A DNA stretch of 64,000 nt from an uncultured delta proteobacterium (GTDB taxonomy: Bacteria; Desulfobacterota; Desulfobaccia; Desulfobaccales; 0-14-0-80-60-11), in the NCBI GenBank assembly GCA_963773285.1, contig CAVZAM010000030.1, forward strand, positions 25,662-89,661, written 5' to 3'. Under the pieces are notes generated by a model that was not told the DNA's origin, made no database searches, and worked only from the letters and a program-made list of their open reading frames with translations. Shown in pieces: positions 16,240 through 56,969 of the stretch; the first letter of the stretch is position 1, and each line of letters begins with the position of its first letter. Both the position numbers and the translations under genes were made by a program.

Positions 16240-16381
16240 GTTACCTCCTTTGAAAAAATGCCGTCTCCTTGATTAAACTTAGATAATCATTCCAATCCCG
16301 GCGGTCAAGAATTCAGGTTGCCGATTTTCCTGGGCTTGGCCATGCTGCTATAAGAGGTAAAGGAGGAATAACGACTAACTC

Positions 16382-17581
16382 CTATGTGCAAAGTCAAGTT
16401 GGCAAGGTGCCCCGGTGTCCTTTCAGAATCCAAGCCAGTCTCCTGATATGGTTGAAAGTTGTCAAGCAGGCGCGGGAGCCCCTTGGTTTTTTTGTTAAGC
16501 TGCGGGATGATTCTCAGGCCCCAGCGGGGCGGGACGCTTTAGCGACGTTTGATGCAATTTCAGAAAAAGTTTGGCACTGAGAAAGCTTGTCAAAAGCATT
16601 TGTTTCGCCTGCGTTGGCCAGAGGGATTTCGTTGACCCCGCTGTCAACATGGTGAGGCTTATTTTCAGCGCACCCGAAACTTATACCATTGTAGGGCCTG
16701 CGGCTATCAAGCCTCATTGACCGCAGGTACCGTGTTCCAGAAGACCAGAACGCCCTTGACCAAATGGTTCTGGATGATCTGGCTGATGGGGCGCCAGAAG
16801 AGCGGCATCTCGATGATGGCCCTGCAGCGGATGCTGGAGATCAAGAGCTACAAAACCGTCTGGACCATGGGCCACAAGATTCGTCAAGCCCTGGCTGCGC
16901 GGGAAGCCGACTACCAATTGGCTGGCTTGATCGAGATGGACGACACTTACTTCGGTGCTCCGAAACCCGGCAAACGTGGACGTGGCGCTGCCGGCAAGGC
17001 CAAGGTGGTGGTGGCCGTGGAAACCCCGACCGATAAGCCCAGGTTTGCCGCCATGCGCCTGGTGCCCCGGGTCAGCGGCGCAGAGATTCAACCCCTGGTA
17101 CAGGAGCGCCTGGCCTCCGGGGCGGTGATCAAGACCGATGGCTGGCAAGGCTATAGCTTCCTGGATGCTTCCCCCGGTCTCCGGCATGAGTGGCTGGTTC
17201 CCGGTTCGGGAAAGGAAGCGCCGAAGGTCTTGCCCTGGGTCCATACCTTGATCGCCAATATAAAGGGCAATATCCGGGGTATTCACCATGGCGTCAGTCC
17301 CAAACATCTGCCCCGCTACCTGGCGGAATTTTGCTACCGTTTCAACCGCCGCTTTTGGGAACCCCAGATGTTTAACCGCATGATTCATGCTTGCTTGCAT
17401 TCTACAACCGTTACTTTCTCAGAGCTAAAGGCATAATCGCTCATTTCACAGATTATCAATAGCTTGTAAGAATATTGATAAGATCCTCATAGCTTTCAAC
17501 CATTATGTCTATTCGTGAGTTCCCCTCGCAAGTGGGACCGCAAGTAATTACATCCGGGGTATTCAATCGGGGCTGACATAG
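16382..17581 (+). mobile_element. IS1595-family insertion sequence (boundaries tentative)
   Basis: It contains the IS1595-type DDE transposase gene. Candidate ends are CTATGT...CCCCGGTGT (16382-) and the inverted ACATCCGGGG...ACATAG (-17581), a weak imperfect match. The 8 bp flanks differ (ACTAACTC vs CTTGCCGC), so there is no target duplication. The right end abuts a truncated malic enzyme remnant. Confidence 0.5.
16552..17436 (+). pseudogene. IS1595-family transposase with in-frame TGA (16633-16635) replacing the first Cys of the N-terminal zinc ribbon
   Basis: ATG 16552 gives MQFQKKFGTEKACQKHLFRLRWPEGFR*PRCQHGEAYFQRTRNLYHCRACGYQASLTAGTVFQKTRTPLTKWF..., in frame with the 16717-17436 ORF. 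The DDE region is MDDTYFG...KTDGWQGY...YLAEFCYRFNRR. Confidence 0.8.
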
Positions 17582-17701
17582 CTTGCCGCCGTGGCCGCAA
17601 CCGCGTACGGGCAGGGGCTGGCCACCCAGCCGCAACCCGAGGATGTCATGGGCAACATCAAGGCACTGATGTATGAGCCGCAGTATCAGAATTACGTATA
17701 A
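17582..17701 (+). pseudogene. 3'-terminal remnant (about 39 codons plus stop) of a second malic enzyme gene
   Basis: It aligns with 15620-15741. By eye there are about 11 mismatches and one in-frame 3-nt gap. Translation LAAVAATAYGQGLATQPQPEDVMGNIKALMYEPQYQNYV* compares with IAAAVAETAYGQGLATQPRPEDVMGSIKSLMYEPKYQNYV*. Confidence 0.8.
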
Positions 17702-19035
17702 GTATTGTTAGAGGTTCCACACGGCGGGTTGAGATATTTCTCAGGATGGATCGGCTGGGGGCAGCGCGAGGCTTTCCGGGAGTATGCATAGGCGGCGGCC
17801 AAACGGTTTTTCCAGCCTGACTCCATCCTTACTATGCGCCTCAAGATGTTGGGCAGCTTATAGGTTTCATGCACGGCCCAATACCAGCCATTCTGAAGTT
17901 CTTCGGAGGTCATCCGGTGGGGATGGATGACTGATTGACAGGCGTCATAATGCGACCAGTCGAGATCGTGGATGCGGCCCTGGCGAGCCATCTCCGTGTA
18001 AAGCCTGGTACCTGGGAATGGCGTCAGGATATGATAAAGGACCACGTCTATTTTGCTGGCATTGACAAAATCAACCGTGCGCTTGAACACCCCCAGGTCA
18101 TCGTCATCGAGCCCGAAGATAAAACTGCCCATGATGGTAATGCCGCGTCGATGTAACTGACGGACGCCCGCGGCGTAATCTTCCGGCCGGTTAATGACCT
18201 TGCCTACTGACTTAAGGGCCCCGGCCGAGACGCTCTCGAAACCGATAAACACAAACCGCCCGCCCGCGGCAGCATAAAGGTCCATCAACTCCGCATCCTT
18301 GGTCAGGGTAAAGGACGCCTGCGCACCCCAGGTAATTCCCAGGGGAATCAGACCCCGCAACAACTCTTTGGCATACTGAACATTGCCGATGAGATTGTCG
18401 TCGAGAAACATCCAGCGTTTATCAGGCTGCTGGGCTATTTCGGCCACCACTTCGGCCACCGGCCGCCAGCGGTAACTGCGGCCGAAGAATTTCGTTACCG
18501 CGCAATAATGGCAGTCGAAAGGACAGCCGCGGGTGGCTTGCAGGGTATTAAAAACGCTGTACATCTCACGATTGAGCAAGGCCCGCCGGGGAGTCACCAT
18601 ACCCCCCATGTCAATCAGCTCAGGGTTCTGATAATTCCTCTGTGGCGCCCCGCCGTTTTCCAGATCCAGGAGGATTTGCGGCCACAACCCCTCGGCCTCC
18701 CCCGCCACCACAATGTCGGCGTGCCTGGCGGCCTCCTCGGGCAAGGCGGTGGCATGATAACCGCCGATAACCACCTTTTTGCCCCGCTGGCGGAATTCGT
18801 CGGCCATCCGGTAAACGTGCGGAATCTCGCAGGTCATGCCGGTAAAGCCCACCAGATCCCAGTCCCCGTCATAGCCAGGATCGCCCAGACGGGCATCGTG
18901 GATCACCACTTCGTGTTGAGGCGGGGTGAGCGCCGCGATGGTGGTCAAGGTCACCCTGGCAAAGCCGGCCTTACCACTCCTGGAAACCTGCCCGATAAAT
19001 CCGGTGGATTTCGGTTGCACGAGGAGTATCTTCAC
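17692..19035 (-). CDS. B12-binding-domain radical SAM protein (DUF4070-type C-terminus), function unknown
   Basis: N-terminal cobalamin-binding-like domain (MKILLVQP, VVIGGYHATALPEE), radical SAM cluster motif CPFDCHYC, and a C-terminal ILTPFPGTRLY...DWSHYD region. G+C is lower than in neighbouring genes. Confidence 0.85.
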   Translation of the reverse strand: MKILLVQPKSTGFIGQVSRSGKAGFARVTLTTIAALTPPQHEVVIHDARLGDPGYDGDWDLVGFTGMTCEIPHVYRMADEFRQRGKKVVIGGYHATALPEEAARHADIVVAGEAEGLWPQILLDLENGGAPQRNYQNPELIDMGGMVTPRRALLNREMYSVFNTLQATRGCPFDCHYCAVTKFFGRSYRWRPVAEVVAEIAQQPDKRWMFLDDNLIGNVQYAKELLRGLIPLGITWGAQASFTLTKDAELMDLYAAAGGRFVFIGFESVSAGALKSVGKVINRPEDYAAGVRQLHRRGITIMGSFIFGLDDDDLGVFKRTVDFVNASKIDVVLYHILTPFPGTRLYTEMARQGRIHDLDWSHYDACQSVIHPHRMTSEELQNGWYWAVHETYKLPNILRRIVRMESGWKNRLAAAYAYSRKASRCPQPIHPEKYLNPPCGTSNNTYT

Positions 19036-33547: not shown

Positions 33548-34056
33548 GGCCTTTCCTTTCTGCGTGATTAAGCAATCTCATCTTATTATGACACTTGCCC
33601 TCCCGGGGGATAAGGTTTTTTACGCCATTAAAACCGGTTAGGCGGCAAAACCGGCTTCAAGCATGGGCCCGGGTGACAGAAATCATCCTTTTATTTGTAA
33701 AATTAAACACTTATCCGAGAATGAAGGCCTAGTCTTGGCATTGTCAATATATACCAATATGAGTGGTGAATTTTTACCAGGGGATAACAGGGGTGGGTGC
33801 TGCTTCCCTGCACCGGCCCAAGCATCGCGCCCCAGCCTTCGGGGAAAAAGTAACTTGCGGCGAAATCCATTGCAACTAATTGATAATACAACTTATTTTT
33901 ATACCAAGGAAAATGCTGAGTTAAAAATCAGGGTTTCCCCAGGTAAAAAAGCGGGTTTTTGCCCATTGGTATCTTTTTCAGATCAATTACCTTTAATGGT
34001 ACTTGAACACTGAGTATTAAACCGCGCTCGGGTAAGTAAAACGAGGAGATATCCTT

Positions 34057-34816
34057 ATGAAGATAAAATGGCTGTGTGCCCTGGTGTTGGGACTGATTAT
34101 CTGCCTGCCGGGCATGGCTGGGGCCACCTTTATCAGTGACCCCACCATCTTTGGCGCCGGTACGGTTACGGAAGGGTTTGAAGAAATTACTCCCACCACC
34201 CCGAATACTAGCTGTGGCGTCTTACGGGAATTTTATCCTGCTTGGCACCACTTCCCCTTACAACTTCGGCAATGGTATTACCTTGACCGCCCCCAACCCA
34301 CCTTTGGATACAGCCGGTTGGTATAACATGGGGCCCTATGTCAATAACTCCAATTATTCCACTAATGGTGATCTCCTAAATGGCTATAACCAATTAGCCG
34401 TCGCCCCCTTTGGCAAAGCTTATCTGGGTATCTGGGAATACGTAACTTCCTTCAGTCTGACCTTTACCTTTGCCCAAGACGTTATGCGGGCCGGGGCGTA
34501 CTTTACCGGGATCCCTAAGTTTGATTCCGGCAGTACCTATACCGTTCTGGCCCTGGATAAAAACGGCAAGACATTGGCATCCCAGGATATCGATACGGTT
34601 CCCGTGGACGGCTGGATAAATAATTTTGTCGGCTTTGAGGGGTTAACCGGCTTTCGGCAATTGGAATTTCTTTCCAATACTGGCAGTGGCTACGGCCAAA
34701 TAGTCATCGACAACCTTATGGTACAGCCCGTCCCCTTGCCCCCCGCTGCCCTGCTCCTGGGAAGCGGCCTCATAGGCCTGGGGCTGTTGGGCTGGCGGCG
34801 GCGCCAAACCAGCTGA
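34057..34816 (+). CDS. PEP-CTERM sorting-domain secreted protein, apparent frameshift near 34210
   Basis: Signal peptide MKIKWLCALVLGLIICLPGMAGA and C-terminal VPLPPAALLLGSGLIGLGLLGWRRRQTS. Pieces 34057-34326 and 34136-34816. Confidence 0.8.
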
Positions 34817-34840
34817 ATTTCTTAGCCTTCCTGGTTACCT

Positions 34841-34874
34841 GAGGCGGGGCCGTCACGGTTCCGCCTTTTTTTTG
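34841..34874 (+). terminator. rho-independent terminator
   Basis: AGGCGGGGCCGTCACGGTTCCGCCT (10-bp stem with two G-T pairs) followed by TTTTTTTT. Confidence 0.7.
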
Positions 34875-35726
34875 TGGCAAGATGCCCAGCCCCTCCCGAA
34901 ACTTTTACCCGGGGCCACTAGCCCAGCCGCCCCGGATAAATCCGCAAAGCCGCCTTGCTCCCTCCCCTTTTCTCCCCCATCCCTGCACCTGCAGCCGTTC
35001 TCACGGCCGCGGCTCATGTCGCCTCTAGCGGATAGGCCGCTGCCATGTACAAAATCCAAAACATTGCCAACCCTTATTGCCCGCAACCCTGAACATATTT
35101 GTCTTAAATAGCGATAATAATCAAGTAATTATCATAAGTTACATCATGGCAGGAGAATTGCACGAATATACCCCAGATTCAAGGTTAACTATTTAATTTT
35201 ATTATAAATCTCTCTAATTTGGTTCGATTCCAGAGGAGGTTGGGGGAAGCGTCGCAGCTAGCCAGGGAACCCTGAAAAGCTCCCCGGCATCTGAGGGGGC
35301 CTGGGCACACGGGTAAGGCAACCGCGGCGGGTGCATCCCAGCCGGAGCGCTGCCTCCTACCCCGGCAATATAGATACGGCAAATCAGGAAACTCTCCCGG
35401 GATTTTCAGGGTTTTTACCGATTGCTTACTCTTTCCTAACAGGTATTTTTACAGTTAGTTTCGCGGGGAGAAATATAGCCACCGGTCTGCCGCGGCGGAC
35501 CTCTGGCTCACCAGGCAGCACTTCTGGCAGACCCCGGGAGGGAGGGGCCACCGCCACACATACGGGTGCGCCTATTCCAACCGGAAAGGAGGCTTAAGCG
35601 AAGAAAGGCGAGAAGGTGGCTTTATTATGGCGAAGAATCACCATGATAATTAGGTTCGCAAGGCATCGCACCAAAGCGAATCTCAATAATGTTCAACTTA
35701 CCACTCGTGTGTGAGGAGATGGAACT

Positions 35727-36580
35727 ATGAAAAAAACGCTCATGCTCTGTAGCGCCCTGTGCCTGCTGGCAATCCCCCTTGGGGCGGCCCAGGTCCATGC
35801 AGGCACTTACGGATACAACGTCACCATCTATGATAAGGCTGGTCAAACGGATGGTAGTAGAGGGGTAGGAGTAGGTTATGAGGATCAGGAAACGGAACCG
35901 AACATGCTCCTCAACCAGAGTTGGGACTTAGAGGCCTTTGAGGTAAGCCAGACGAAACAGCTCGCGGTGATCGGCGGGTTTGATTTCAAAACCGGGCAGG
36001 CAGATGGATATACCGAGCCCATTGGGCGCTGTCTTTATTAAGACAGTCGACCCTTCCGGTATTACCCCGCCGCCTCCCTTACGGATATGGGCAACGTTGC
36101 CGGTTACAACAATGAAGTGGTCTCTCAACTCTAACTTTGGTTATAATTATGCAATCACCTTTACTTCACCAATAACAAGTACACGGTATATCAAGCTGAA
36201 ACAGCCGCCACTGTGAAACTTCATGGGCCGGACGGTCAAGCTTATGGCGATGTCTCCAACCCTTGGACCATAGCGGACTGGCTGGAACCCCTTAACGGCT
36301 ATGTCGGGCAAGACTTCACCTACGAAACTGGACTGCCATGACATCGATAACTTACTGGGTGGCTCTCACAATGTAATATCCGGTATCAGCCTGAGCTTCT
36401 TGGGGGATAGTATCCTTTTATCTCCACCTCACCTATGAGTGCGGCAATGATAACCTCATGGGCTTCGTTGCCGACCCAGGTGGCAGCAGCGTGCCCATCC
36501 CCGGCAGCCTGCTCCTCCTGGGCACCGGTCTGGCGGGCCTGAGCCTGACTGGCTTTCGCCGCCGGAAACAGGTGGGCTGA
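35727..36580 (+). pseudogene. PEP-CTERM sorting-domain secreted protein interrupted by several frame changes
   Basis: Signal peptide MKKTLMLCSALCLLAIPLGAAQVHA. The conserved-looking body is spread over three frames (WDLEAFEV...VIGGFDF; NFGYNYAITF; YTVYQAETAATVKLHGPDGQAYGDVSNPW; HLTYECGNDNLMGF). The C-terminal VPIPGSLLLLGTGLAGLSLTGFRRRKQ ends with TGA at 36578-36580. Confidence 0.7.
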
Positions 36581-36622
36581 TCCACTGGCATAAATCAGCC
36601 CACATACCTCATTACAACCACC

Positions 36623-36662
36623 CCGGAGGAGGGGGCCGCACCCCTTCCTCCGAGTTTTTTGG
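36623..36662 (+). terminator. rho-independent terminator between convergent genes
   Basis: CCGGAGGAGGGGGCCGCACCCCTTCCTCCG followed by AGTTTTTTGG. Confidence 0.65.
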
Positions 36663-36689
36663 GTTCCCACCCATCTCAGGTGCCGGGGC

Positions 36690-37503
36690 TCAGACTTTCC
36701 TGGCTCCAAGGCGCCGCCGCAAAAGCACCGCCGCCACCCCCGTGCCGAACAGCACCCAGGACGGCGCAATGGGGACAGGATTCGTAGAATCCCCTGCCAG
36801 GGTCATAGTCCCCGGGGAGGGGCTGGCAAAAAAACCCAAGGCCTCCACATCGCTTATTTTCCAGCCGCTATACCTGCCGCTCAGATACCACGCATTGCTT
36901 TGCCATTTAACTGAGTAATTCTCCAGGGCCACCACCCCATCATCGGAATCGGTGATGTAAATGCCGGTGTAGGCGCCCGGGGCACTATAACTGAAACCCC
37001 AGAGGGTGACGGCGTGGGCCAGCGAGCCGTTTCTGATGGTCATGGTCACGCCATCGCCCTTGTGCAGCAGGGTGTCGGCCATGCTCATCAAGTTTCCCGT
37101 GGAACCATAGGCAAGGTATTGATTGATGTTCAGGGAGGGAAAGAAATCTCCGCCGACTAGCGTTAGGATACGCCTAAGCCTTAGTGGGCGGTTTGGCGCC
37201 GCTGAACCACCAGTTCCATGCCCAACTCATGTCTCCTGTCTTGTTGGTCCAGTGTGCCACGAAATCTTTAAAAATCGCTGTATCGGTGCTGTAAGTCGAA
37301 GTCCCCCATTTTTCATAAGCTAGGACGTTGACAGCCGCAGCGGCCCAGCACATGAGGGAATCATCATTCCTGGTCTTGTTGGCGTCGTGCCAGGTGCCGC
37401 CGTACTGGTTATAAATGAAATACGTGTCCGACAGGGCCGGGACTGCAGTCGCCAGCACCAGCAATGAGATCATCAACAGATAACCGTAAATGCGCTTCTT
37501 CAT
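36690..37503 (-). CDS. papain-fold cysteine peptidase-like secreted protein with PEP-CTERM-type anchor, apparent frameshift near 37190
   Basis: Signal peptide MKKRIYGYLLMISLLVLATAVPALS. Putative catalytic Cys in DDSLMCWAAAAVNVLAY, His in SLAHAVTLWGF, then YITDSDDG. C-terminal VPIAPSWVLFGTGVAAVLLRRRLGARKV. Pieces 37174-37503 and 36690-37091. Confidence 0.65.
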
Positions 37504-37685
37504 TGTTCATCTCCCCCGAAAAAGAACATGGTTGTTGGCTCAGAGACCGGTAAAGGCTAGTCTGGGGGCAGACGCAGGGGACGGGCTTGAAAGGTGGGAA
37601 AGGCCTGGTTTAAACGCAGACGTGCCGGCGCGGTTGTCCTTGGTCAAACCTGGCCGGCGCCATGCTTACCTTTTTCCTGACCGCC

Positions 37686-38630
37686 TCAGAGCAGTTTTTC
37701 ATCGCGCCGTATTTTCTGCAGACACCAGAACCCGATAAGCGCCTGGGATATCAGGGCAAAAAATTGGTAAATCAACCCAAAGGCCAGGACGGTCGCGGCC
37801 CGGACGGCTGGGGCGGCCTGGGGCACAAAAGGGCTGAACAGCATGACCAGAGCCGCTTGGGTGGTGCCGAGCCCGGCGGGCGTGACCGGCACGGCGTACA
37901 CAAACAGGACCACCGTGATCATGGCCAGGCCCCGGGACAAAGGGACCTCGATGCCCCAGAGGCGCATGGCCCCCCAGTATGCCAGCACCAGGAACAGCAT
38001 GTGGGGCAGCCTCACGGCCGCGGCCTGCAGGTGCCCCTTCAAACCGGCCTGCCAGAGGGGCGCCAGGAGCCCATATTTCTGCAGGAAGCGCGGCTGCACC
38101 CTGATTATGACGAGATAAACCAGAATTGCGGCCCACAGCCCCAGGAATAACGGGGCAACATGGAATCCCGCGGCCCTGGGCAGGCCGCCGGCCAAAAAAC
38201 CTAGACTGGCAATGAGCAAAAGGACGCCGAAGTTCAGGCCCATCAGGAACAGCATGCTCCCGGCAGCCTGCGCGGCAGTGGTCCCCGAACGCTTCAGGTA
38301 CACCCCCAGGGCCCCCTGTCCCAGGCTGTAGCTCAGCATGCCCACCACATAGGTCGCCCCCCGGGCCAAAGCAATTTGGCCGAACCCCCGCCGCAGCCCC
38401 GCGATGGTTAAGGATACGGAGGTGGCATAGGCATCCAGCAGCAGGACCAGGAGTGTCTGGAGAAAGGTGTAGCCCGCCAGCCACAGCCAGGGGCCGGTTT
38501 TAAGGGCCTCCAGCAAGGCTTGCAAAGGGATTTTTACCAGGAGAAAAGCGAGGATGGCCAGGGCCACCAGCCACGGCCAGATTCTGGCCAGGACCCCCTT
38601 GAGTCTCGTCAGGGCCGGCACAAACTCCAC
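37686..38630 (-). CDS. flippase-like / lysylphosphatidylglycerol-synthase TM-region (UPF0104) family membrane protein
   Basis: 314 aa, about 8 TM helices. VPVTPAGLGTTQAALVMLF is characteristic of the LPG_synthase_TM family. Confidence 0.7.
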   Translation of the reverse strand: MEFVPALTRLKGVLARIWPWLVALAILAFLLVKIPLQALLEALKTGPWLWLAGYTFLQTLLVLLLDAYATSVSLTIAGLRRGFGQIALARGATYVVGMLSYSLGQGALGVYLKRSGTTAAQAAGSMLFLMGLNFGVLLLIASLGFLAGGLPRAAGFHVAPLFLGLWAAILVYLVIIRVQPRFLQKYGLLAPLWQAGLKGHLQAAAVRLPHMLFLVLAYWGAMRLWGIEVPLSRGLAMITVVLFVYAVPVTPAGLGTTQAALVMLFSPFVPQAAPAVRAATVLAFGLIYQFFALISQALIGFWCLQKIRRDEKLL

Positions 38631-48772: not shown

Positions 48773-49676
48773 TCAGGCGGAGTCCCGGGCAGCCAGAATT
48801 TCCACGGCTCTAAAACCCAGGGCCATCAACCCCTCCTCGGCCTGCTGCCGCCGCCGCTTCAGACCGAAGGCCACATCCCCGGTGACCCGGTTGGTGAACA
48901 CCGCGCAGGCGCCGCCGGCCCGGAGGTTACAGGAAGAGACCCGGGCCAGGGCCAGATAGACCGACATCTCCATCTCCAGGTTTAAGACCCCGGCGCGCCT
49001 CAGGCGCTCCACCTTGTCCGGTTCAGCGGTGGGGAAACCGGGCACCCGCCTCCCCTGGCCGGCGTAGAAATCGGCGGTGGTGCAGGTGGTGCCCAGGTGA
49101 TGGGGCAACTGCAGTTCCCCGGCCGCCTGGACCAGGGCCTGGATCACCGCCGGGTGGGCCGGCGACCGGGCCATCGTCGGGGCAGTAGTAGTGGGAAGTG
49201 TGCTCGTCCCGGATGGCCTGGCGGGTGATAATCAGGTCCCCCACCTGGATGTGCGGCTGCAAGGCCCCGCAGCTTCCCAGGCGGATGAAGGTCAGGTCCC
49301 GGGCGCACTGGCAGGCTTCCACTATGGCAATGGCGGTGTTGTCCGGACCGATGCCGGTAGCCATGAGGGTAACGGGGATCTGACGGTATAAACCGGTTAT
49401 GGTCAGGAACTCCCGGTAGCGGCGGCGGATCTGCACCCGGTCCAGAAATTTGGCCAGCCTGCGGACCCTGGCGGGGTCGCCGCAGGTGAGGACATAGGGG
49501 GCGATGTCCCCGGGGCCGCAGTTGATGTGGTAACACCTGCCCTGCTCATTTAGGGCCACATCAGGGGGAGGCCCGGTCACGGGTACTCCAGGGCCCGCCA
49601 CCGCAGCCCTGACCCCCCCGGGGTGTGGCCGCCGGCGAAGAGCGTCGATGTGCAGCCGATCAAGATCTGACGGCAA
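48773..49676 (-). CDS. nucleoside phosphorylase (PNP/UDP family 1), apparent frameshift near 49165; start uncertain
   Basis: VLTCGDPARVRRLAKFL, TGLYRQIPVTLMATGIGPDNTAIAIVE, FIRLGSCGAL and VLNLEMEMS are present. Pieces 49023-49676 and 48773-49174. Confidence 0.75.
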
Positions 49677-50273: not shown

Positions 50274-50843
50274 CTAGGAAGTTAACTTATCGGAAAATTG
50301 CCAGGCACCGGCGGGCAACATAAAATCTTTGGCCTCTTTGAGGAGCAGCTTGTAGCGGTCCACGAGGTCCAGGAGCTGCTGCTGCTGACGCTGCATGACC
50401 GCCAGGGTCTCCTGCAGGTTGGCCAGATCTTCCCGCAGGCGCTGGTTGTCCCGGTGCAGGGACACGTTTTCCCGGTCGAGGCGCATGACCTCCTCCTCGA
50501 GGCCGCCTTGCGCGGTTTGCAGTTCCTCCTCCCGGCGCCGCAGCTCTTCGGTGCGGTGGGCGTAAGCCTCTTCGATGCGACCGGAGAGGCGGGCCTGGGT
50601 TTCCTGCACCACCAGCTCCTCATAAAGGCGGCTCCAACTCTCGAACCCCAGGCAGACGTTGGCCACATAATGAAAACGGCGGCGGTCCTCGCTGGTTAAA
50701 TCGTCATAGAAGGCCTGCAGCTTTTGGGTGGATAACGCGGCCAGGGCCGTCTGGAAGCTCACGGCATCGCGGTCCGGGTCGACAATGAGAGGGGTTTGGC
50801 GGATGAGCTGCTTGATGACTTTGAGGGGCTCGAGGTTTTTCAT
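50274..50843 (-). CDS. hypothetical protein with long C-terminal coiled coil
   Basis: 189 aa with a heptad-like Glu/Arg/Leu/Gln-rich segment (EELRRREEELQTAQGGLEEEVMRLDRENVSLHRDNQRLREDLANLQETLAVMQRQQQQLLDL). It is same-strand downstream of the nucleotidyltransferase gene. Confidence 0.5.
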   Translation of the reverse strand: MKNLEPLKVIKQLIRQTPLIVDPDRDAVSFQTALAALSTQKLQAFYDDLTSEDRRRFHYVANVCLGFESWSRLYEELVVQETQARLSGRIEEAYAHRTEELRRREEELQTAQGGLEEEVMRLDRENVSLHRDNQRLREDLANLQETLAVMQRQQQQLLDLVDRYKLLLKEAKDFMLPAGAWQFSDKLTS

Positions 50844-52143: not shown

Positions 52144-52371
52144 ATGGATCTGAACTCCGAGCAAGTTACCGAACGTGTCCGCCTCCTGGCCAACAGCATC
52201 CTGGAACGCTTCAATGAAGAGCAGATTACCCCGGAGGAGGCGGGTTGGGTCGTTCTCGCCCTGACGCACCGCCTGCTGACGGTGCTGGAACAAAACCCGG
52301 CAGACCGCCAGGCCTTTGTCCTGCAGTTCATCGGCCTGGTGAACCAGTACCTGGCCGGGGACTTACAGTAG
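52144..52371 (+). CDS. small hypothetical protein (75 aa)
   Basis: ATG 52144 within ORF 52090-52371. Helical, no family recognised. Confidence 0.35.
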   Translation: MDLNSEQVTERVRLLANSILERFNEEQITPEEAGWVVLALTHRLLTVLEQNPADRQAFVLQFIGLVNQYLAGDLQ

Positions 52372-52456: not shown

Positions 52457-54763
52457 ATGACACGCCGCGCTGATTCTATCCTGGAGTTGATGGGGGAGAC
52501 CCCCATCGTCCGTCTCAATAAGCTCAACCCCCCTTCCCGGGTGGAAGTCTATGTAAAACTTGAGTATTTTAACCCGGGAGGCTCGATTAAAGACCGGCCG
52601 GCCCTGACCATGATCGAGGCCGCCGAAGCCTCGGGCGAACTGACCCCGGGGAAGACGGTCATCGAGGCCACCAGCGGCAACACCGGCATCGGCCTGGCCA
52701 TGGTATGCGCCGTCAAGGGCTACCGGCTGCTCCTGGCCATGTCCGAGTCCGCCTCCGAAGAGCGCAAAAGGATCCTCCGGGCGCTGGGGGCCGAAATCCT
52801 GCTCACCCCGCCCCATCTGGGCACCGACGGCGCCATCGAGGAAGTGTACCGCATGGCCCGGGAAAACCCGACAGCCTACTTCCTGGTGGACCAGTTCAAC
52901 AACCCCCACAACCCCGCCTCTCATCAAGGCACGGCCAAGGAGATCTGGGAGCAGACCGAAGGCAGGGTCACCCACGTGGTCATCACCATGGGGACCACCG
53001 GCACCCTCATGGGCCTGACCCGGTATCTCAAGGGCTATAGCCCGGATATCCGGGTGGTGGGGGTGGAGCCTTATCTGGGGCACGGCATCCAGGGGCTGAA
53101 GAACCTGAAAGAATCTTACGTGCCGGGGATTTTCGCCAAGGGCGTGGCCAACGACATCGTCAACGTCGAAGATGAAGAGGCCTTCGAGACGGCCCGGCGC
53201 CTGGCCCGGGAGGAAGGGCTGTTCGTGGGCATGAGTTCCGGGGCGGCGGTGGCGGTGGCCCTGCGGATGGCCCGGGACCTGGAGCAGGGCCTCATCGTGG
53301 CCATTGCCCCGGACGGCGGCGAACGCTACCTCTCCACCCCGCTGTTCGCCGAAAAGGAAATCCCCACCCTCCAGGTTTACAACAGCCTCACCCGCACCAA
53401 GGAGGCCTTCGAGCCTTACAAGGCCGGGGAAGCCGCTCTGTTTGTGGACGGCCCGGCCCTCAATGCCCACCTTTCCTTACAGGTGGCCCGGCGCCTGGTG
53501 CTGGCCGACCTCTTGCAGCGCTACCTCAAGTTCCGGGGCTTCCAGGTGAAAAAGCTGGTGAGCCTGATCGATCTGGACGACCGCGCCATTGCCGGGGCCG
53601 AGGCCGCGGGCCAGGATCTGGCCGCGTTCACCGGGCATTTCCGGGAGGAGTTCTTCCGGGCTCTCAAGGCCCTGCGCATCAGCGAAGACGGGCTCTTCCC
53701 CCTGGCTTCGGAGCACGTGGACGACATGACCAATCTCACCCGGCGCCTTTTGGAGCGGGGTTATGCCTACGAAAAACTGCGGTCGGTGTACTTCGACATC
53801 GCCCGCTTCAAGGACTACGGCCGCCTCTCCGGGGTGGACCTGAGCAAGATCCGGGTGGGGAAGACCGTGGACCTGGACGACTACGCCAAGGAAAATCCCC
53901 GGGATTTCACCCTGCTGAAAAGGGCCAAGCTGGGGGAGCTCAAAAAGGGCCTCTACTTCAACACCCCCTGGGGCAAGGTGCGGCCCAGCTGGCACCTGGA
54001 GTGCGCCGCCATGGCCACGAGCCTCCTCGGGACCTCCGCTGACTTCCACGTGGGCTCCATTGCCTCGCTGTTCCCCCACGAAGAAAATGAAAATGCCCTC
54101 TTCGCCGCGGCCACCGGCAAGCCCCTGGCCCGGGTGTGGCTGCACGGGGAGCGGGTGCTTAGGCTCGGGCGGCCGCTTAAGGAGACCGGCGAGGTGACGG
54201 TGCGGGAACTCCTGGAGCAGGGGTATAAAGGCGAGGAGGTGCGGTTTTTTCTGCTGAGCACCCACTACCGCAAACCCCTGTCCCTGGGCGATGATAGCCT
54301 CAAGGCCGCGGCCAAGGCCCGGGCCCGCCTGGACCACTTCCTGACGCGCCTGGGCGCCGTGGCTACCGGGGACGACGCCGGCCTGCGGGGGGTGGAGGAG
54401 AGGCTTTTCCAGCTGAAAAGGGACGTGGTCCAGGCCCTGGATGACGACCTGAATATTTCCCGGGCCCTGTCGGCGCTGTTCAGTTTCCTGGGGGATATTC
54501 ATGTGGAACTGGACCGGGGGAACCTGGGCCAGAAAGGCGCCCACGCGGTGCTGACCCGGCTGGCCGAAGTGGATGAACTCCTGGGGATCATGAATTTCCC
54601 TGAGGCCGGCGAGGACGCCCACATCGAGACCCGCCTGGCGGCGCGGGAGGCTGCCCGCCAGCGCCGGGATTGGGGCGCCGCGGACGACATCCGGGCCGAA
54701 CTGGAGGAAGCCGGCATTGAGGTGGTGGATACCCCGGCCGGGCCGCGCTGGCACCGGCGTTAA
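52457..54763 (+). CDS. fusion protein: CysM/CysK-type PLP cysteine synthase (aa 1-~300) joined to a cysteinyl-tRNA-synthetase-like module lacking HIGH and KMSKS (aa ~305-768)
   Basis: N-terminal half: PGGSIKDRPAL (PLP Lys), TSGNTGIGLA, GTTGTLMG, GMSSGAA, DGGERYLST. C-terminal half: LQVYNSLTRTKEAFEP, SWHLECAAM, LFPHEENE, DDDLNISRALSALF and RRDWGAADDIRAELEEAGIEVVDTPAGPRWHR are collinear with CysRS. The HIGH position reads SLQV and the KMSKS position reads GRPLK. It is a single 768-codon ORF with no stop or start codon at the junction (about 53340-53370). Confidence 0.8.
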   Translation: MTRRADSILELMGETPIVRLNKLNPPSRVEVYVKLEYFNPGGSIKDRPALTMIEAAEASGELTPGKTVIEATSGNTGIGLAMVCAVKGYRLLLAMSESASEERKRILRALGAEILLTPPHLGTDGAIEEVYRMARENPTAYFLVDQFNNPHNPASHQGTAKEIWEQTEGRVTHVVITMGTTGTLMGLTRYLKGYSPDIRVVGVEPYLGHGIQGLKNLKESYVPGIFAKGVANDIVNVEDEEAFETARRLAREEGLFVGMSSGAAVAVALRMARDLEQGLIVAIAPDGGERYLSTPLFAEKEIPTLQVYNSLTRTKEAFEPYKAGEAALFVDGPALNAHLSLQVARRLVLADLLQRYLKFRGFQVKKLVSLIDLDDRAIAGAEAAGQDLAAFTGHFREEFFRALKALRISEDGLFPLASEHVDDMTNLTRRLLERGYAYEKLRSVYFDIARFKDYGRLSGVDLSKIRVGKTVDLDDYAKENPRDFTLLKRAKLGELKKGLYFNTPWGKVRPSWHLECAAMATSLLGTSADFHVGSIASLFPHEENENALFAAATGKPLARVWLHGERVLRLGRPLKETGEVTVRELLEQGYKGEEVRFFLLSTHYRKPLSLGDDSLKAAAKARARLDHFLTRLGAVATGDDAGLRGVEERLFQLKRDVVQALDDDLNISRALSALFSFLGDIHVELDRGNLGQKGAHAVLTRLAEVDELLGIMNFPEAGEDAHIETRLAAREAARQRRDWGAADDIRAELEEAGIEVVDTPAGPRWHRR

Positions 54764-55543: not shown

Positions 55544-56969
55544 ATGAGCGACAAGCCCTGGGGCGGGCGTTTTGAAGGGGCCACCGAGAAGTCGGTGGAG
55601 GAATTCACCAGTTCCCTCCACATCGACCGGCGGCTCTACCGGCAGGACATTTTGGGGTCCATGGCCCACGCCCGGATGCTGGCCAAGCAGGGCATCCTCA
55701 GCGTGCCGGAAGCGGAGGCCATTATCCAGGGGCTGGCCGAGGTTCAGGAAGAGATCGACGCCGGAGAATTCACCTTCGACCCGGCCCTGGAAGACATCCA
55801 CATGGCCGTGGAGGCCCGCCTCACCGCCAAGGTCGGCGAGGTGGGGGGCAAGCTGCACACCGCCAGGAGCAGAAACGACCAGGTGGCCCTGGATGTCCGC
55901 CTGTACCTGGCCGACGAGGTGGAAACCCTCACCGAGGGCCTGCAGGAGCTCCGCCGGGCCGGGGCCAGGCTCGCCAGACGCTACCTCGGGGTCATCATGC
56001 CGGGCTACACCCACCTGCAGCGGGCCCAGCCCGTGTTGTTCGCCCACCATCTGCTGGCCTACGACGAGATGTGGCGCCGGGACGGGATGCGCCTCACGGA
56101 ATCCCTGGCCCGCATCCGGGTCTCGCCGCTCGGGGCCGCGGCCCTGGCCGGCACCACCTTCCCCATCGATCCGGCCTACACCGCCGACCAGGTGGGGTTC
56201 CCGGCGGTCTTCCGCAACAGCCTGGACGCGGTGAGCGACCGGGACTTCATCCTGGAATTTCTCTCCCACGCCGCCCTCGATCATGGTGCACCTAAGCCGC
56301 CTCTCGGAGGAGCTGATCCTCTGGGCCAGCGCCGAATTCGGTTTTGTGGCCCTCCCCGACTCTTACGCTACCGGCTCATCCATCATGCCCCAGAAGAAAA
56401 ACCCCGACGTGGCGGAGCTCATCCGGGGTAAAAGCGGCCGGGTGGCGGGTCACCTCATGGGGCTGCTCATGACCGTGAAGGGCCTACCCCTGGCTTACAA
56501 CCGGGACCTCCAGGAAGACAAGGAGCCCCTGTTCGACGCCGTGGACACGGTGAAGGCCTCGGTGAGCCTCATGGCGGGGATGCTGGGAAGCCTGGACCTC
56601 AGGGAGGAGCGCATCTCCCAGGCCCTGCGGGGCGGGTATCTTTCCGCCACGGACCTGGCCGACTACCTGGTGGAGCAGGGGGTGCCTTTCCGCACGGCCC
56701 ACGAGCAGGTGGGGAGGCTGGTGCGCTACGCCGAGTTCCAGGGGAAGGAACTCCTGGAGCTTTCCATAGAGGAGATTCAGCGCTTTGCCTCCCAGGCCGG
56801 GCCCGACGTCTTCGAGTGGCTGGCCATAGACAACGTGGTGGCCAGGCGTGCTTCCCCCGGGGGCACGGCGCCGGCGCGGGTGGAAGAGGCCCTGGCCCGG
56901 GTGGAAGCGGAACTGGGTCTGTGTGCCCCGGAGGGCCAAGGAGAAGCATCGGAAGGCGCCCGGTCGTGA
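55544..56969 (+). CDS. argH: argininosuccinate lyase, apparent frameshift near 56279
   Basis: WGGRFEG, HTARSRNDQVALD, GYTHLQRAQP and GSSIMPQKKNPDVAELIRGK are present. Pieces 55289-56431 (true ATG 55544) and 56283-56969. Confidence 0.9.

What the first reader, a model, noticed from the sequence alone, without database searches (positions are those of the whole stretch)
52457..54763. Intact CysM/CysK-type cysteine synthase fused in frame to a CysRS-like module that has lost both class I synthetase signatures
This is a single uninterrupted 768-codon ORF. The first ~300 residues carry every PLP-enzyme hallmark I can check: SIKDR Lys, TSGNTG, GTTGT and SSG. The loop VGVEPYLGHGIQGL resembles CysM/O-phosphoserine-sulfhydrylase-type enzymes. 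After a linker of only a few residues (LFAEKEIPT), the protein is collinear with bacterial CysRS from its first residues (LQVYNSLTRTKEAFEP) to its last (DWGAADDIRAELEEAGIEVVDTPAGPRWHR). That span includes the anticodon-binding DALR-type region (DDDLNISRALSALF). The position of HIGH reads S-L-Q-V. GGGSD reads VGSIA. KMSKS reads G-R-P-L-K, so ATP-dependent aminoacylation looks impossible. In contrast, the cysteine/zinc pocket looks largely kept: Trp and Cys in SWHLECAAM, and His/Glu in FPHEENE. Only the first Zn Cys is changed, to Asp. I checked the other two frames around the motif positions and none restores HIGH or KMSKS. The architecture suggests three possibilities: a cysteine-sensing domain, a tRNA(Cys)-tethering domain on a sulfhydrylase, or a tRNA-dependent step analogous in logic to SepCysS. 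All three are speculation. I do not know this fusion as a characterised protein.
Basis: partly seen in the sequence, partly recalled or inferred. Interest (0 to 1): 0.78.

Follow-up and report, generated by a model that had tools for sequence, protein, structure and literature searches.

The report
Cysteine synthase fused to dead CysRS
This is a real, conserved gene of sulfate-reducing bacteria that joins an intact-looking cysteine-making enzyme to a copy of the cysteine tRNA-charging enzyme that has lost its ATP site but kept its tRNA-recognition parts, which suggests an untested direct link between cysteine synthesis and tRNA(Cys).

Summary
Window 52457-54763 (+) is one 768-codon ORF: a CysM-type PLP cysteine synthase, a ~7-residue linker, and a full-length CysRS-like module with HIGH = SLQV, GGGSD = VGSIA, KMSKS = RPLKE and Cys28 = Asp. 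It is not an assembly artefact. Two neighbouring genes are frameshifted, but this gene aligns in one frame to over 120 orthologous clusters.

It belongs to a large uncharacterised family: at least 576 loci in species-representative genomes, nearly all Thermodesulfobacteriota. The CysRS-like gene is fused to cysM in 77 of 80 loci and adjacent in 2. The ATP/adenylate site erodes in a patchwork across the family. The anticodon-binding-domain Arg/Asp positions are invariant or nearly so in all 230 sampled fusions, and dN/dS of the dead module is 0.14.

Three genomes of a neighbouring clade carry a canonical cysS as well, twice on the same contig. For the window's own clade this is only suggested by DNA composition.

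Best reading: a cysteine synthase coupled to tRNA(Cys) through a pseudo-synthetase (regulatory or tethering, like GCN2 or HisZ in logic). A strict zinc-thiolate cysteine sensor is weakened. tRNA-dependent catalysis is not excluded. I found no paper describing the family.

The parts
52457..54763 (+). Whole gene: 768-codon ORF plus stop, encoding the CysM / CysRS-like fusion protein
   Evidence: ORF listing. Aligns in a single frame at 85.7% identity to the L001 ortholog. The 120 best database clusters are full-length orthologs.
52457..53347 (+). CysM-type PLP-dependent cysteine synthase domain (aa 1-297). PLP Lys is K45 (nt 52589-52591). TSGNTG is aa 72-77. GTTGT and SSG are present.
   Evidence: Pfam PALP 10-286. 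NCBIfam cysKM 370.6 bits against cut-off 344. Best solved-structure matches are Salmonella and E. coli CysM, 2jc3/2bhs, 277 bits. Foldseek TM 0.95. Motif residues invariant in 144 fusions. dN/dS 0.08.
53348..53368 (+). Short linker (aa 298-304, AEKEIPT)
   Evidence: Lies between the end of the CysM homology and the start of the CysRS homology at L305. AlphaFold pLDDT falls to 70 for residues 291-300.
53369..54316 (+). CysRS-derived Rossmann-fold plus CP-domain region (aa 305-620) with a destroyed activation site. It contains the subfamily-specific insertion TVDLDDYAKENPRDFTLLKR.
   Evidence: Pfam tRNA-synt_1e 318-619. NCBIfam cysS 291 bits, below the 340 cut-off. dN/dS 0.10. The insertion served as the family-specific scan pattern.
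53447..53485 (+). First zinc-ligand position and HIGH position: D331 (= E. coli C28), A334 (= T31), S340-L-Q-V343 (= HIGH 37-40)
   Evidence: Alignments to 8qhp, 3tqo and 1li5. In the clade, D in 120/121 and [S/T]L.[V/M/L] at HIGH.
53567..53569 (+). I371 (= E. coli T68, ligand of the substrate cysteine amino group). The following DLDDRAIA replaces DIDDKIIK.
   Evidence: Ile in 121/121 clade members, Thr in 70/72 stand-alone CysRS. K73 -> R and K76 -> A.
53987..54004 (+). S511-W-H-L-E-C516 (= G204-W205-H206-I-E-C209): retained Trp and second zinc Cys
   Evidence: W205 in 121/121 and C209 in 93/121 of the clade (S 25, G 3).
54050..54091 (+). V532-G-S-I-A536 (= GGGSD, with D229 -> Ala) followed by F-P-H541-E-E-N-E545 (= FPHHENE, with H234 and E238 kept)
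   Evidence: Alignments. D229 kept in 0/121 of the clade. H234 in 230/230.
54170..54184 (+). R572-P-L-K-E576 at the KMSKS position
   Evidence: HMMER alignment to 1li5. K266 and M267 are kept in 0-1 of 121 clade members. P-L-[K/R]-E is itself conserved in the clade.
54425..54592 (+). DALR_2 helical domain (aa 657-712) with the DDDLN motif
   Evidence: Pfam DALR_2. D349 equivalent kept in 121/121 of the clade and 107/109 other fusions.
54614..54739 (+). C-terminal CysRS anticodon-binding domain (aa 720-761) with R730, R734, D743, R746, D758 (= E. coli R423, R427, D436, R439, D451)
   Evidence: Pfam CysS_C. Four of these residues are invariant in all 230 sampled fusions and R427 in 229. R427, D436, R439 and D451 are also kept in 77 of the 78 genome loci that reach the domain; L037 has K at R427. 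The model superposes on the CysRS-tRNACys complex 1u0b at TM 0.82.

Best explanation
The gene encodes a member of a large, uncharacterised, mostly Thermodesulfobacteriota family. In it, a catalytically competent-looking CysM-type cysteine synthase is permanently coupled, by fusion or rarely by an adjacent gene, to a CysRS-derived pseudo-synthetase.

In this branch the pseudo-synthetase cannot activate cysteine, because its ATP/adenylate site is gone. It does keep the complete tRNA(Cys)-recognition apparatus. Charging of tRNA(Cys) is done by a separate canonical CysRS.

The most likely working model is that the dead module binds tRNA(Cys) and thereby ties cysteine synthesis to the state or location of the tRNA(Cys) pool. 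Either tRNA binding allosterically tunes the PLP domain, which is the logic of the GCN2 HisRS-like domain and of HisZ. Or it places cysteine production next to the tRNA(Cys)/CysRS charging step.

Shown:
- the architecture;
- loss of the activation-site residues;
- purifying selection on the dead module;
- invariance of the anticodon-domain residues;
- family size and the universal CysM linkage;
- coexistence with canonical cysS in a neighbouring clade.

Inferred:
- actual tRNA(Cys) binding;
- the regulatory or tethering consequence;
- presence of a canonical cysS in this particular genome.
For: 1. Intact CysM module. dN/dS 0.08.
2. Dead activation site. C28D, T31A, H37S, N66S, T68I, K73R, D229A and K266/M267/S270 are all replaced, and the replacements are fixed across 121 clade members. 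NCBIfam cysS scores below its cut-off. C28D greatly reduces translation activity in E. coli CysRS (PMC10655014).
3. The dead module is not decaying: dN/dS 0.14, and the AlphaFold model has pLDDT 90.6 and pTM 0.75.
4. tRNA-recognition parts are under the strictest constraint. R423, D436, R439 and D451 are invariant in 230/230 fusions and R427 in 229. R290 is also invariant, Y298 and R299 are kept in 229/230, H297 in 221/230 and D349 in 228/230. These lie in Pfam's CysS_C anticodon-binding domain. The model matches the CysRS-tRNACys complex 1u0b.
5. Comparative argument. The known CysRS paralogs that no longer read the GCA anticodon (MshC, CysRS*) have lost this domain. This family never has.
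6. Rosetta-stone linkage. 77/80 genome loci are fused and 2/80 have cysM directly upstream as a separate gene. At least 576 loci were found.
7. Motif erosion is patchwork across the family, so aminoacylation is not the selected function. Only 2/109 other-clade fusions and 3/80 genome loci keep H-x-G-[H/N] plus KMS[K/R]S.
8. A canonical cysS coexists with such fusions: L046 on the same contig, RBG_13_43_22 (L048 plus P0439), and L101/L102 on the same contig. High-GC canonical cysS contigs L098 and L099 have a window-like DNA signature.
9. Precedent. HisZ is a non-adenylating synthetase paralog that regulates synthesis of its cognate amino acid (PMC9437257). The GCN2 HisRS-like domain sensing uncharged tRNA is established knowledge.
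Against: - No direct evidence of tRNA binding or of any allosteric effect.
- No tRNA-Cys gene, regulatory RNA or conserved partner gene accompanies the fusion.
- Conserved Arg/Asp residues in the C-terminal domain could serve another RNA or a protein partner.
- The substituted active-site residues are themselves conserved within the clade (D331, I371, P-L-K-E). This could mean a remodelled pocket for an unknown ligand, which a pure tRNA-tether model does not explain.
- Coexistence with canonical cysS is shown only in the neighbouring P0306-type clade. For the window's clade it rests on GC and tetranucleotide similarity. A different order (Desulfocarbo, L035) reaches similar similarity, r = 0.93.
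Confidence: 0.5

Rival explanations
1. tRNA-dependent catalysis. The dead synthetase holds tRNA(Cys) so that the CysM-type PLP site can act on something attached to it. Examples are converting an O-phosphoseryl- or seryl-tRNA(Cys) to Cys-tRNA(Cys) (SepCysS-like in logic), or adding an amino-acid-derived group to a tRNA base.
For: The full tRNA-recognition apparatus is retained next to an intact beta-replacement PLP enzyme, joined by a linker of only ~7 residues. The active-site substitutions are conserved rather than random, consistent with a remodelled pocket for a 3'-end-bound substrate.
Against: The substrate alpha-carboxylate loop TSGNTG is invariant in 144/144 sequences, which fits a free amino-acid substrate rather than an ester. 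A canonical cysS coexists with such fusions in three genomes of a neighbouring clade, so an indirect route is not needed there. No fold-type-II PLP enzyme is known to act on aminoacyl-tRNA (my knowledge).
Confidence: 0.1
2. HisZ-like small-molecule sensor. The module no longer uses ATP, but still binds free cysteine (or a related thiol) in the old amino-acid pocket and feeds back on the fused CysM domain.
For: W205, H206, H234, E236 and N237 are invariant in the clade, and C209 and E238 are mostly kept. Asp at position 28 could still ligate a metal. HisZ is a direct precedent.
Against: T68 -> Ile in 121/121. C209 -> Ser or Gly in 28/121 close relatives. E238 -> Val in 45/109 and C28 -> Tyr in 29/109 fusions of other clades. 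So a zinc-thiolate cysteine site is not a family-wide feature. This model also leaves the near-perfect conservation of the anticodon-binding domain unexplained.
Confidence: 0.15
3. Structural relic. The module is kept only for folding, solubility or oligomerisation of the CysM domain, or as a docking surface for another protein (for example canonical CysRS), with no RNA or ligand binding of its own.
For: No partner RNA or gene was found nearby. Motif loss is progressive along the tree.
Against: dN/dS 0.10-0.23 over 468 residues. Specific surface-type Arg/Asp positions in the anticodon domain are conserved across clades only ~50% identical overall. No family member has shed the C-terminal domains in at least 230 sequences.
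Confidence: 0.15
4. Still a bifunctional enzyme. Despite unorthodox motifs, the module aminoacylates tRNA(Cys), giving cysteine synthesis and charging in one protein.
For: A few family members do look competent: P0121 (HLGN/KMSRS), and L021, L023 and L047. P0125 has fully canonical motifs, but as an independent fusion outside the clade. P0121 and P0125 pass the cysS equivalog cut-off. In T. marina the fusion sits near ispD and ispF, where housekeeping cysS usually lies.
Against: In this protein every ATP-contacting motif is gone, as are C28 and T68. It scores below the cysS cut-off. C28D alone cripples E. coli CysRS. Relatives with much milder changes already coexist with a canonical cysS.
Confidence: 0.04
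5. Assembly artefact: two ordinary genes (cysM and cysS) joined by an indel or a chimeric contig.
For: The window does contain frameshifts in two nearby genes.
Against: The same 768-aa architecture occurs in the 120 best database clusters and in 77/80 genome loci from independent assemblies. The motif losses are substitutions conserved across the clade, not frame errors.
Confidence: 0.01

Closest known systems
CysM (O-acetylserine sulfhydrylase B / cysteine synthase B; structures 2jc3, 2bhs, 2v03)
   Same: The N-terminal 297 residues are a full-length homolog with every PLP-site motif. Best PDB sequence hits at 277 bits, Foldseek TM 0.95.
   Different: The score is below NCBI's CysM equivalog cut-off (364 against 394), so it passes only the cysKM subfamily model. 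It carries a 470-residue C-terminal CysRS-like module. Substrate preference (OAS or O-phosphoserine; sulfide, thiosulfate or a thiocarboxylate carrier) is unknown.
Canonical cysteinyl-tRNA synthetase (E. coli CysRS; 1li5, 1u0b)
   Same: Collinear over residues 2-461. Same domain order: Rossmann, CP, SC fold, helical bundle, anticodon-binding domain. The anticodon-domain and SC-fold conserved residues are kept.
   Different: HIGH, KMSKS, the GGGSD Asp, C28, T68 and K73 are replaced. It scores below the cysS equivalog cut-off. It has a subfamily-specific CP insertion (NPRDFTL-KR...). It is fused to CysM.
HisZ (HisRS paralog, regulatory subunit of ATP-phosphoribosyltransferase HisG)
   Same: A synthetase paralog without adenylation activity, physically coupled to the biosynthetic enzyme of its cognate amino acid (PMC9437257).
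   Different: HisZ senses the free amino acid and lacks the anticodon-binding domain (my knowledge). Here the amino-acid pocket is eroded and the anticodon-binding domain is the best-conserved part. The coupling here is by gene fusion.
GCN2 HisRS-like domain (eukaryotic general amino-acid control)
   Same: A catalytically dead synthetase-like domain fused to an enzyme domain. There it binds uncharged tRNA to control amino-acid supply (established knowledge). That is the logic proposed here.
   Different: It is eukaryotic, HisRS-derived, binds many tRNAs and controls a kinase. Here the domain is bacterial, CysRS-derived, presumably specific for tRNA(Cys), and fused to the biosynthetic enzyme itself. 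Function here is untested.
SepRS / SepCysS (/SepCysE) tRNA-dependent cysteine synthesis
   Same: It links a PLP-dependent sulfur-insertion enzyme with tRNA(Cys) recognition (PMC5424206, PMC8762117).
   Different: SepCysS is a fold-type-I PLP enzyme unrelated to CysM. SepRS is a class II enzyme that charges phosphoserine with ATP. Neither paper mentions this fusion. A canonical cysS coexists with fusions of this family in a neighbouring clade.
Known CysRS paralogs: MshC (mycothiol ligase) and CysRS* (Desulfobacterales, charges selC* tRNA)
   Same: Both derive from CysRS by duplication (PMC9437257, PMC5389517).
   Different: Both keep ATP-dependent cysteine activation and have lost the anticodon-binding domain. 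This family does the reverse. TIGR03447 MshC scores 116 bits against a cut-off of 485.
CysRS as PLP-dependent cysteine persulfide synthase (CPERS)
   Same: It connects CysRS with PLP chemistry on cysteine (PMC10655014).
   Different: CPERS needs K73, K76, K266 and K269. Here these are R, A, R/P and K/E depending on alignment register, so at most one of the four lysines remains. PLP here belongs to a separate, bona fide CysM domain.

Membership tests
Cysteine synthase CysK/CysM (PALP fold type II; NCBIfam TIGR01136 cysKM) | Full-length match above the curated cut-off | tested here: met
   TIGR01136 370.6 bits against cut-off 344.15. Pfam PALP 249.7 bits against cut-off 35.
Cysteine synthase CysK/CysM (PALP fold type II; NCBIfam TIGR01136 cysKM) | PLP Schiff-base Lys, substrate-carboxylate loop TSGNTG, phosphate loop GTTGT, and SSG | tested here: met
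   K45, T72-G77, G179-T183 and S260-G262 align to CysM structures. The key residues are invariant in 144 fusions.
Cysteine synthase CysK/CysM (PALP fold type II; NCBIfam TIGR01136 cysKM) | Equivalog-level assignment to CysM specifically | tested here: not met
   TIGR01138 364.2 bits against 394.2. NF008735 336.1 against 413. It is CysM-like, but not an equivalog by NCBI's thresholds.
Cysteine synthase CysK/CysM (PALP fold type II; NCBIfam TIGR01136 cysKM) | Sulfhydrylase activity with OAS or OPS | not testable with these tools
   Needs enzymology.
Cysteine--tRNA ligase (CysRS, EC 6.1.1.16; NCBIfam TIGR00435) | Score above the equivalog cut-off | tested here: not met
   291.2 bits against cut-off 340. 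Intact-motif relatives P0121, P0125 and P0280 score 451, 517 and 419.
Cysteine--tRNA ligase (CysRS, EC 6.1.1.16; NCBIfam TIGR00435) | Class I signatures HIGH and KMSKS | tested here: not met
   SLQV and RPLKE. Lost in all 121 clade members.
Cysteine--tRNA ligase (CysRS, EC 6.1.1.16; NCBIfam TIGR00435) | Zinc/cysteine site: C28, C209, H234, E238, W205 and T68 | tested here: not met
   C28 -> D and T68 -> I. C209, H234, E238 and W205 are kept in the window, but C209 varies in the clade.
Cysteine--tRNA ligase (CysRS, EC 6.1.1.16; NCBIfam TIGR00435) | Anticodon-binding domain and overall domain order | tested here: met
   Pfam DALR_2 and CysS_C. Conserved R423, R427, D436, R439 and D451 equivalents. 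TM 0.82 to 1u0b.
MshC-type cysteine ligase (TIGR03447) | Retains ATP-dependent cysteine activation motifs, lacks the anticodon-binding domain, and scores above cut-off | tested here: not met
   115.9 bits against 485.1. Motifs absent. Anticodon domain present.
CysRS* (Desulfobacterales selC*-specific synthetase) | Lacks the anticodon-binding domain; gene follows selC*/selB* | tested here: not met
   The domain is present. No tRNA or selB-like gene is nearby. Definition from PMC5389517.
Pseudo-synthetase regulatory modules (HisZ-like / GCN2 HisRS-like): functional class, not a homologous family | Synthetase-derived module without activation motifs, physically coupled to another enzyme | tested here: met
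   Motif loss. Fusion or adjacency to CysM in 79/80 genome loci.
Pseudo-synthetase regulatory modules (HisZ-like / GCN2 HisRS-like): functional class, not a homologous family | Binds the cognate amino acid (HisZ) or tRNA (GCN2) and thereby changes the partner's activity | not testable with these tools
   There is only indirect support for tRNA binding, from conservation of the anticodon domain. The amino-acid pocket is eroded.
[quoted passage not shown] | Fold-type-I PLP enzyme homologous to cysteine desulfurases, working with SepRS | tested here: not met
   The PLP domain is fold type II, PALP/CysM. Presence of SepRS in the genome could not be tested.

The most novel reading that the evidence does not exclude
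The fusion performs a tRNA(Cys)-dependent reaction. The dead CysRS module docks tRNA(Cys) by its GCA anticodon and presents its 3' end, or a base, to the CysM-type PLP site. That site then makes cysteine on the tRNA from an activated seryl ester, or installs an amino-acid-derived modification. This would be an ATP-independent, fold-type-II analogue of SepCysS, found in at least several hundred bacterial species.
Probability: 0.08. Interest if true: 0.95.

Novelty: new variant of a known kind. Interest (0 to 1): 0.7.

Why it matters
Synthetase-derived pseudo-enzymes that regulate metabolism are known from only a few cases, such as HisZ and the GCN2 HisRS-like domain. This is a family of at least several hundred species in which the biosynthetic enzyme for an amino acid is hard-wired to a tRNA-recognising relic of that amino acid's own synthetase.

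If the relic senses tRNA(Cys), it would be a bacterial, protein-based counterpart of T-box or GCN2 logic acting directly on an enzyme. If it presents tRNA(Cys) to the PLP site, it would be a new route of tRNA-dependent chemistry. Either outcome is directly testable with one recombinant protein and a tRNA transcript.

There is also a practical consequence. Public annotation names these proteins either 'cysteine--tRNA ligase' or 'cysteine synthase'. The first name is probably wrong for most members. It could hide a missing cysS call, or inflate the cysS count, in genome-completeness and metabolic reconstructions of sulfate reducers.

Tried and rejected
1. Second cysS or cysK in the 64-kb window: none (tblastn).
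2. tRNA genes or Rfam RNAs in the window: none.
3. Literature: six full-text searches and eight papers read. None describes the fusion. The Aravind 2010 paper mentioning both enzymes concerns MetRS-like gene neighbourhoods.
4. Naming stand-alone CysRS representatives to find a Desulfobaccales cysS: no taxon names returned.
5. P0507, a widely sampled canonical CysRS, as a possible partner of P0010. It has different samples, 49.6% GC and tetranucleotide r = 0.35, so it is an unrelated organism.
6. The window protein and its 99% relative P0001. The first is not on record, and the second sits on a 3.9-kb contig from another sample.
7. D. ferrophilus fusion P0124: no contig on record.
8. Conserved gene neighbours over 84 loci. 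Nothing occurs in more than 19 loci, and most is housekeeping synteny: tmk, glmS, glmU, surE, lptD, DciA, DUF3786.
9. tRNA-Cys linkage: none in 60 loci.
10. Anticodon-arm mimic or structured leader upstream of the gene. The fold is no more stable than shuffles (z = +0.98), and the leader is not conserved between the window and L001.
11. CPERS-type activity of the module: rejected, because at most one of the four required lysines remains.
12. 'Stand-alone' subfamily members (P0138 type, L007, L008): they turned out to have cysM directly upstream, so they are split forms and not exceptions.
13. The near-equal contig lengths of P0061 (340,267 bp) and P0564 (340,321 bp) were a lead for same-replicon coexistence in the window's clade. 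The look-up instead revealed coexistence in a P0306-type organism.

Full report
**1. The observation**

Window 52457-54763 (+) is a single ATG-initiated ORF of 768 codons.

- Pfam places PALP at residues 10-286, tRNA-synt_1e at 318-619, DALR_2 at 657-712 and CysS_C at 720-761.
- The N-terminal part passes NCBI's cysKM subfamily model (370.6 bits, cut-off 344). It falls just short of the CysM equivalog models.
- The C-terminal part matches the cysS equivalog over positions 1-465 of 466, but scores only 291 bits against a cut-off of 340.

| E. coli CysRS | Window protein |
|---|---|
| C28 | D331 |
| HIGH (37-40) | S-L-Q-V (340-343) |
| GGGSD (225-229) | V-G-S-I-A (532-536) |
| KMSKS (266-270) | R-P-L-K-E (572-576); register ambiguous by one residue |
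| W205, C209, H234, E238 | kept |

T68 contacts the amino group of the substrate cysteine (my knowledge of the E. coli structure).

The N-terminal domain's best solved relatives are Salmonella and E. coli CysM (2jc3, 2bhs; 277 bits), with all PLP-site motifs aligned.

**2. Not an artefact**

The window does have indel problems. Relative to the orthologous locus L001, argH is frameshifted near 56278-56280 and a PNP-family gene near 49180. The fusion gene, however, aligns in one frame over all 768 codons at 85.7% identity.

The 120 best database clusters are all 753-782 residues long, 70-99% identical and cover 98-100% of the query. Where named, they come from Desulfobacca, Desulfobaccales or Thermodesulfobacteriota MAGs.

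The downstream context is conserved: a conserved small upstream ORF, then the fusion, a ~217-aa predicted protein with an N-terminal hydrophobic stretch, argH, a gene with a weak fn3 hit, lysA, dapF, dapA and dapB.

**3. It is a member of a large family with graded degeneration**

An exhaustive search of 50%-identity representatives found full-length fusions down to 42% identity. A search from a stand-alone relative showed the fusion in cultured organisms:

- Thermosulfurimonas dismutans and T. marina
- Desulforegula conservatrix
- Desulfonema ishimotonii
- Desulfovibrio ferrophilus

A scan of one genome per species used two peptide patterns specific to this CysRS-like subfamily (TVDLDxY[EA]K and [NS]P[RA]DFTL[FL][KR]R). 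The 80 best are almost all Thermodesulfobacteriota: Desulfobacterales, Desulfobulbales, Desulfarculales and Desulfatiglandales. They include Desulfocarbo indianensis and Desulfogranum marinum.

In 77 of those 80 loci the CysRS-like gene is fused to cysM. In two (L007, L008) cysM lies immediately upstream as a separate ORF. One is cut by a contig end.

A crude NJ tree puts all fusions except one in a single clade. The exception is a Nanoarchaeota MAG protein, P0125, which is an independent fusion to a fully canonical CysRS. Early branches keep H-x-G-[L/I/V] and KMS-x-S, and later ones lose one or both.

Counts of members that keep H-x-G-[H/N] plus KMS[K/R]S:

- 2 of 109 fusions outside the window's clade (6 if any residue is allowed at the fourth HIGH position).
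- 3 of the 80 genome loci.
- By a looser test (C28, H-x-G-x and KM-x-[K/R]), 59 of 72 stand-alone CysRS sequences are canonical.

Intact-motif members pass the cysS cut-off of 340 bits: P0121 451, P0125 517, P0280 419. Degenerate ones do not.

**4. What is lost and what is kept**

I took columns that are at least 85% conserved in 59 canonical stand-alone CysRS sequences and compared them with the window's clade of 121 sequences.

Replaced in the clade:

| E. coli position | In the window's clade |
|---|---|
| C28 | D in 120/121 |
| T31 | A |
| H37 | S or T |
| N66 | S |
| T68 | I in 121/121 |
| K73 | R |
| G204 | S |
| D229 | E or A |
| K266, M267, S270 | replaced |

Together these form the ATP/adenylate and cysteine-amino-group site. 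The replacements are themselves conserved within the clade.

The zinc site is not a family constant. C209 is Ser or Gly in 28/121 of the clade. In other clades E238 is Val in 45/109 and C28 is Tyr in 29/109.

By contrast, several groups of positions are kept across the 230 sampled fusions:

- R423, D436, R439 and D451 are invariant and R427 is kept in 229. All lie inside Pfam's CysS_C anticodon-binding domain.
- R290 is invariant, Y298 and R299 are kept in 229, and H297 in 221.
- The DDD-motif Asp (D349) is kept in 228.
- A block of CP-domain residues is invariant. R427, D436, R439 and D451 are also kept in 77 of the 78 genome loci that reach the domain; L037 has K at R427.

Nei-Gojobori dN/dS between the window and L001:

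| Region | dN/dS |
|---|---|
| CysM part | 0.08 |
| Whole CysRS-like part | 0.14 |
| Rossmann + CP | 0.10 |
| Helical + anticodon domains | 0.23 |

The AlphaFold2 model, built on a 144-sequence alignment, is confident (mean pLDDT 90.6, pTM 0.75). Its C-terminal half superposes best on E. coli CysRS in complex with tRNA(Cys) (1u0b, TM 0.82 on the target). Its N-terminal half superposes on CysM (TM 0.95). No solved structure contains both.

**5. Is there a separate, real CysRS?**

The window has none. Three genomes that carry a fusion also carry a fully canonical cysS:

- MAG172: fusion HLGM/KMSQA. The canonical cysS (HVGH, KMSKS) is 6.7 kb away on the same contig, L046.
- MAG RBG_13_43_22: fusion in L048, canonical P0439.
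- The organism of L101/L102: glmS - fusion (HLGL/KMSWT) - DUF3786 - ... - ispD - ispF - cysS (HVGH/KMSKS) on one contig.

All three belong to the P0306-type clade, which lies close to the window's clade in the NJ tree. So even mildly degenerate fusions are paralogs there.

For the window's own clade I could only show the following. Canonical CysRS genes P0490-P0493 (HIGH, KMSKS; ispD-ispF-cysS context) lie on contigs of 62.6-62.8% GC. Their tetranucleotide correlation with the window is 0.94-0.95. That is inside the range of the window's own 8-kb pieces (0.92-0.98). It is close to true Desulfobaccales loci (0.96-0.97), but also not far from a Desulfarculales genome (0.93). This is suggestive, not proof.

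**6. How it most likely works**

- The PLP domain looks like a working CysM-type sulfhydrylase acting on a free amino-acid substrate, because the carboxylate loop TSGNTG is invariant.
- The synthetase module cannot make Cys-AMP. C28D alone greatly reduces translation activity in E. coli CysRS (PMC10655014).
- It is also unlikely to have the PLP-dependent persulfide synthase activity of CysRS. That activity needs K73, K76, K266 and K269, and at most one of these remains.
- What selection preserves most strictly is the tRNA-recognition apparatus.
- Known CysRS paralogs that stopped reading the GCA anticodon (MshC, CysRS*) lost the anticodon-binding domain. This family never does.

I therefore favour a cysteine synthase coupled to tRNA(Cys) through a pseudo-synthetase. 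This could be an allosteric sensor of the tRNA(Cys) pool, following the logic of the GCN2 HisRS-like domain (established knowledge) and, for coupling a dead synthetase paralog to the cognate biosynthetic enzyme, of HisZ (PMC9437257). Or it could be a tether that places cysteine production at the charging step. My confidence in this class of mechanism is about 0.5, and the choice between the two sub-variants is open.

Rivals:

| Rival | Confidence | Comment |
|---|---|---|
| HisZ-like cysteine sensor | 0.15 | Weakened by the erosion of T68 and the zinc site |
| Structural relic | 0.15 | |
| tRNA-dependent catalysis by the PLP domain | 0.10 | |
| Residual aminoacylation | 0.04 | |
| Artefact | 0.01 | |

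**7. What gave no information**

- There is no tRNA-Cys gene next to the fusion in 60 loci, and no Rfam RNA in the window.
- The leader upstream of the gene is neither structured nor conserved.
- No partner gene is conserved across clades. The commonest neighbour, an unannotated ~300-370-aa protein, is in 19 of 84 loci and absent from the window. The rest is housekeeping synteny.
- In T. marina the fusion (HLGL/KMSVS) lies near ispD and ispF, the usual place of housekeeping cysS. So early-branching fusions may still be the cell's CysRS. I could not test that.

**8. Novelty**

Six full-text searches and the relevant reviews found no description of a cysteine synthase-CysRS(-like) fusion. The papers read include those on tRNA-dependent cysteine synthesis, synthetase paralogs and synthetase evolution. 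The 2022 paralog review lists only CysRS* and MshC for CysRS.

Databases name the proteins either 'cysteine--tRNA ligase' or 'cysteine synthase'. I rate it a new variant of a known kind: synthetase-derived pseudo-enzymes recruited to amino-acid metabolism. It is widespread and experimentally tractable.

The most novel reading not excluded is a fold-type-II, ATP-independent, tRNA(Cys)-dependent reaction, with probability about 0.08.

Noticed in passing
window 55544-56921 (+): argH is split by a +1 frameshift near 56278-56280 relative to the intact 476-aa ortholog in L001 (frame 2, then frame 3). This is either an assembly indel or a pseudogene.
   Followed up: partly
window 48776-49562 (-): A PNP_UDP_1 (nucleoside phosphorylase family) gene is frameshifted near 49180 relative to the 277-aa ortholog in L001.
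   Followed up: partly
window 52144-52371 (+): A small ORF (~75 aa, no Pfam match) lies directly upstream of the fusion gene. It is conserved at 77% identity in L001 and called as a 75-102-aa gene in L001-L003 and L100. It is restricted to the window's clade as far as seen. Function unknown.
   Followed up: partly
L006 8902-10014; L021 3748-4864; L005 12363-13286 (and 14 more loci): An unannotated ~300-370-aa protein family (no Pfam hit) lies next to the fusion on the same strand in 19 of 84 loci. It is upstream in the intact-motif (HLGN/KMSRS) clade and downstream in the HxGE clade. It is absent from the window. It may be a clade-specific partner.
   Followed up: partly
L007 8725-9612 + 9625 onward; L008 3478-4368 + downstream ORF: Split forms of the unit: cysM and a CysRS-like gene (HIGL or HVGL, KMSRS) as adjacent ORFs in different frames. 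The 468-aa P0138 cluster (58 members) is this form.
   Followed up: yes
P0125 (Nanoarchaeota MAG, 768 aa): An apparently independent fusion of a CysK/M-type domain to a fully canonical CysRS (HIGN, KMSKS; cysS 517 bits). It branches among ordinary stand-alone CysRS in the NJ tree.
   Followed up: partly
L032, L051, L056, L058, L061, L070 (about 0.9 kb after the scan match): tRNA-Arg(UCU) lies directly downstream of the fusion gene in Desulfobulbales loci. Pairs of tRNA-Ser genes lie close to the fusion in some Desulfobacterales loci (L005, L009, L017, L045, L071). This is probably lineage synteny.
   Followed up: no
L037 (JAIORJ010000191.1): A fusion-bearing contig is binned in a MAG labelled Methanococcoides sp. 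Given the otherwise bacterial distribution, this looks like a binning contaminant.
   Followed up: no
L004 (T. marina CP042909.1, 1089064-1111400): In this 1.76-Mb complete genome the fusion (HLGL/KMSVS) lies near ispF and ispD, the usual neighbourhood of housekeeping cysS. It may be that organism's only CysRS.
   Followed up: no
window 16001-18000 and 34001-38000: Stretches of lower G+C (0.53-0.57, against ~0.63 for the rest of the window) in the composition profile. Not examined.
   Followed up: no
window 50274-50843 (-): A 189-aa ORF with no Pfam match, rich in Glu, Arg, Leu and Gln, lies between a nucleotidyltransferase gene and the upstream region of the fusion gene.
   Followed up: no
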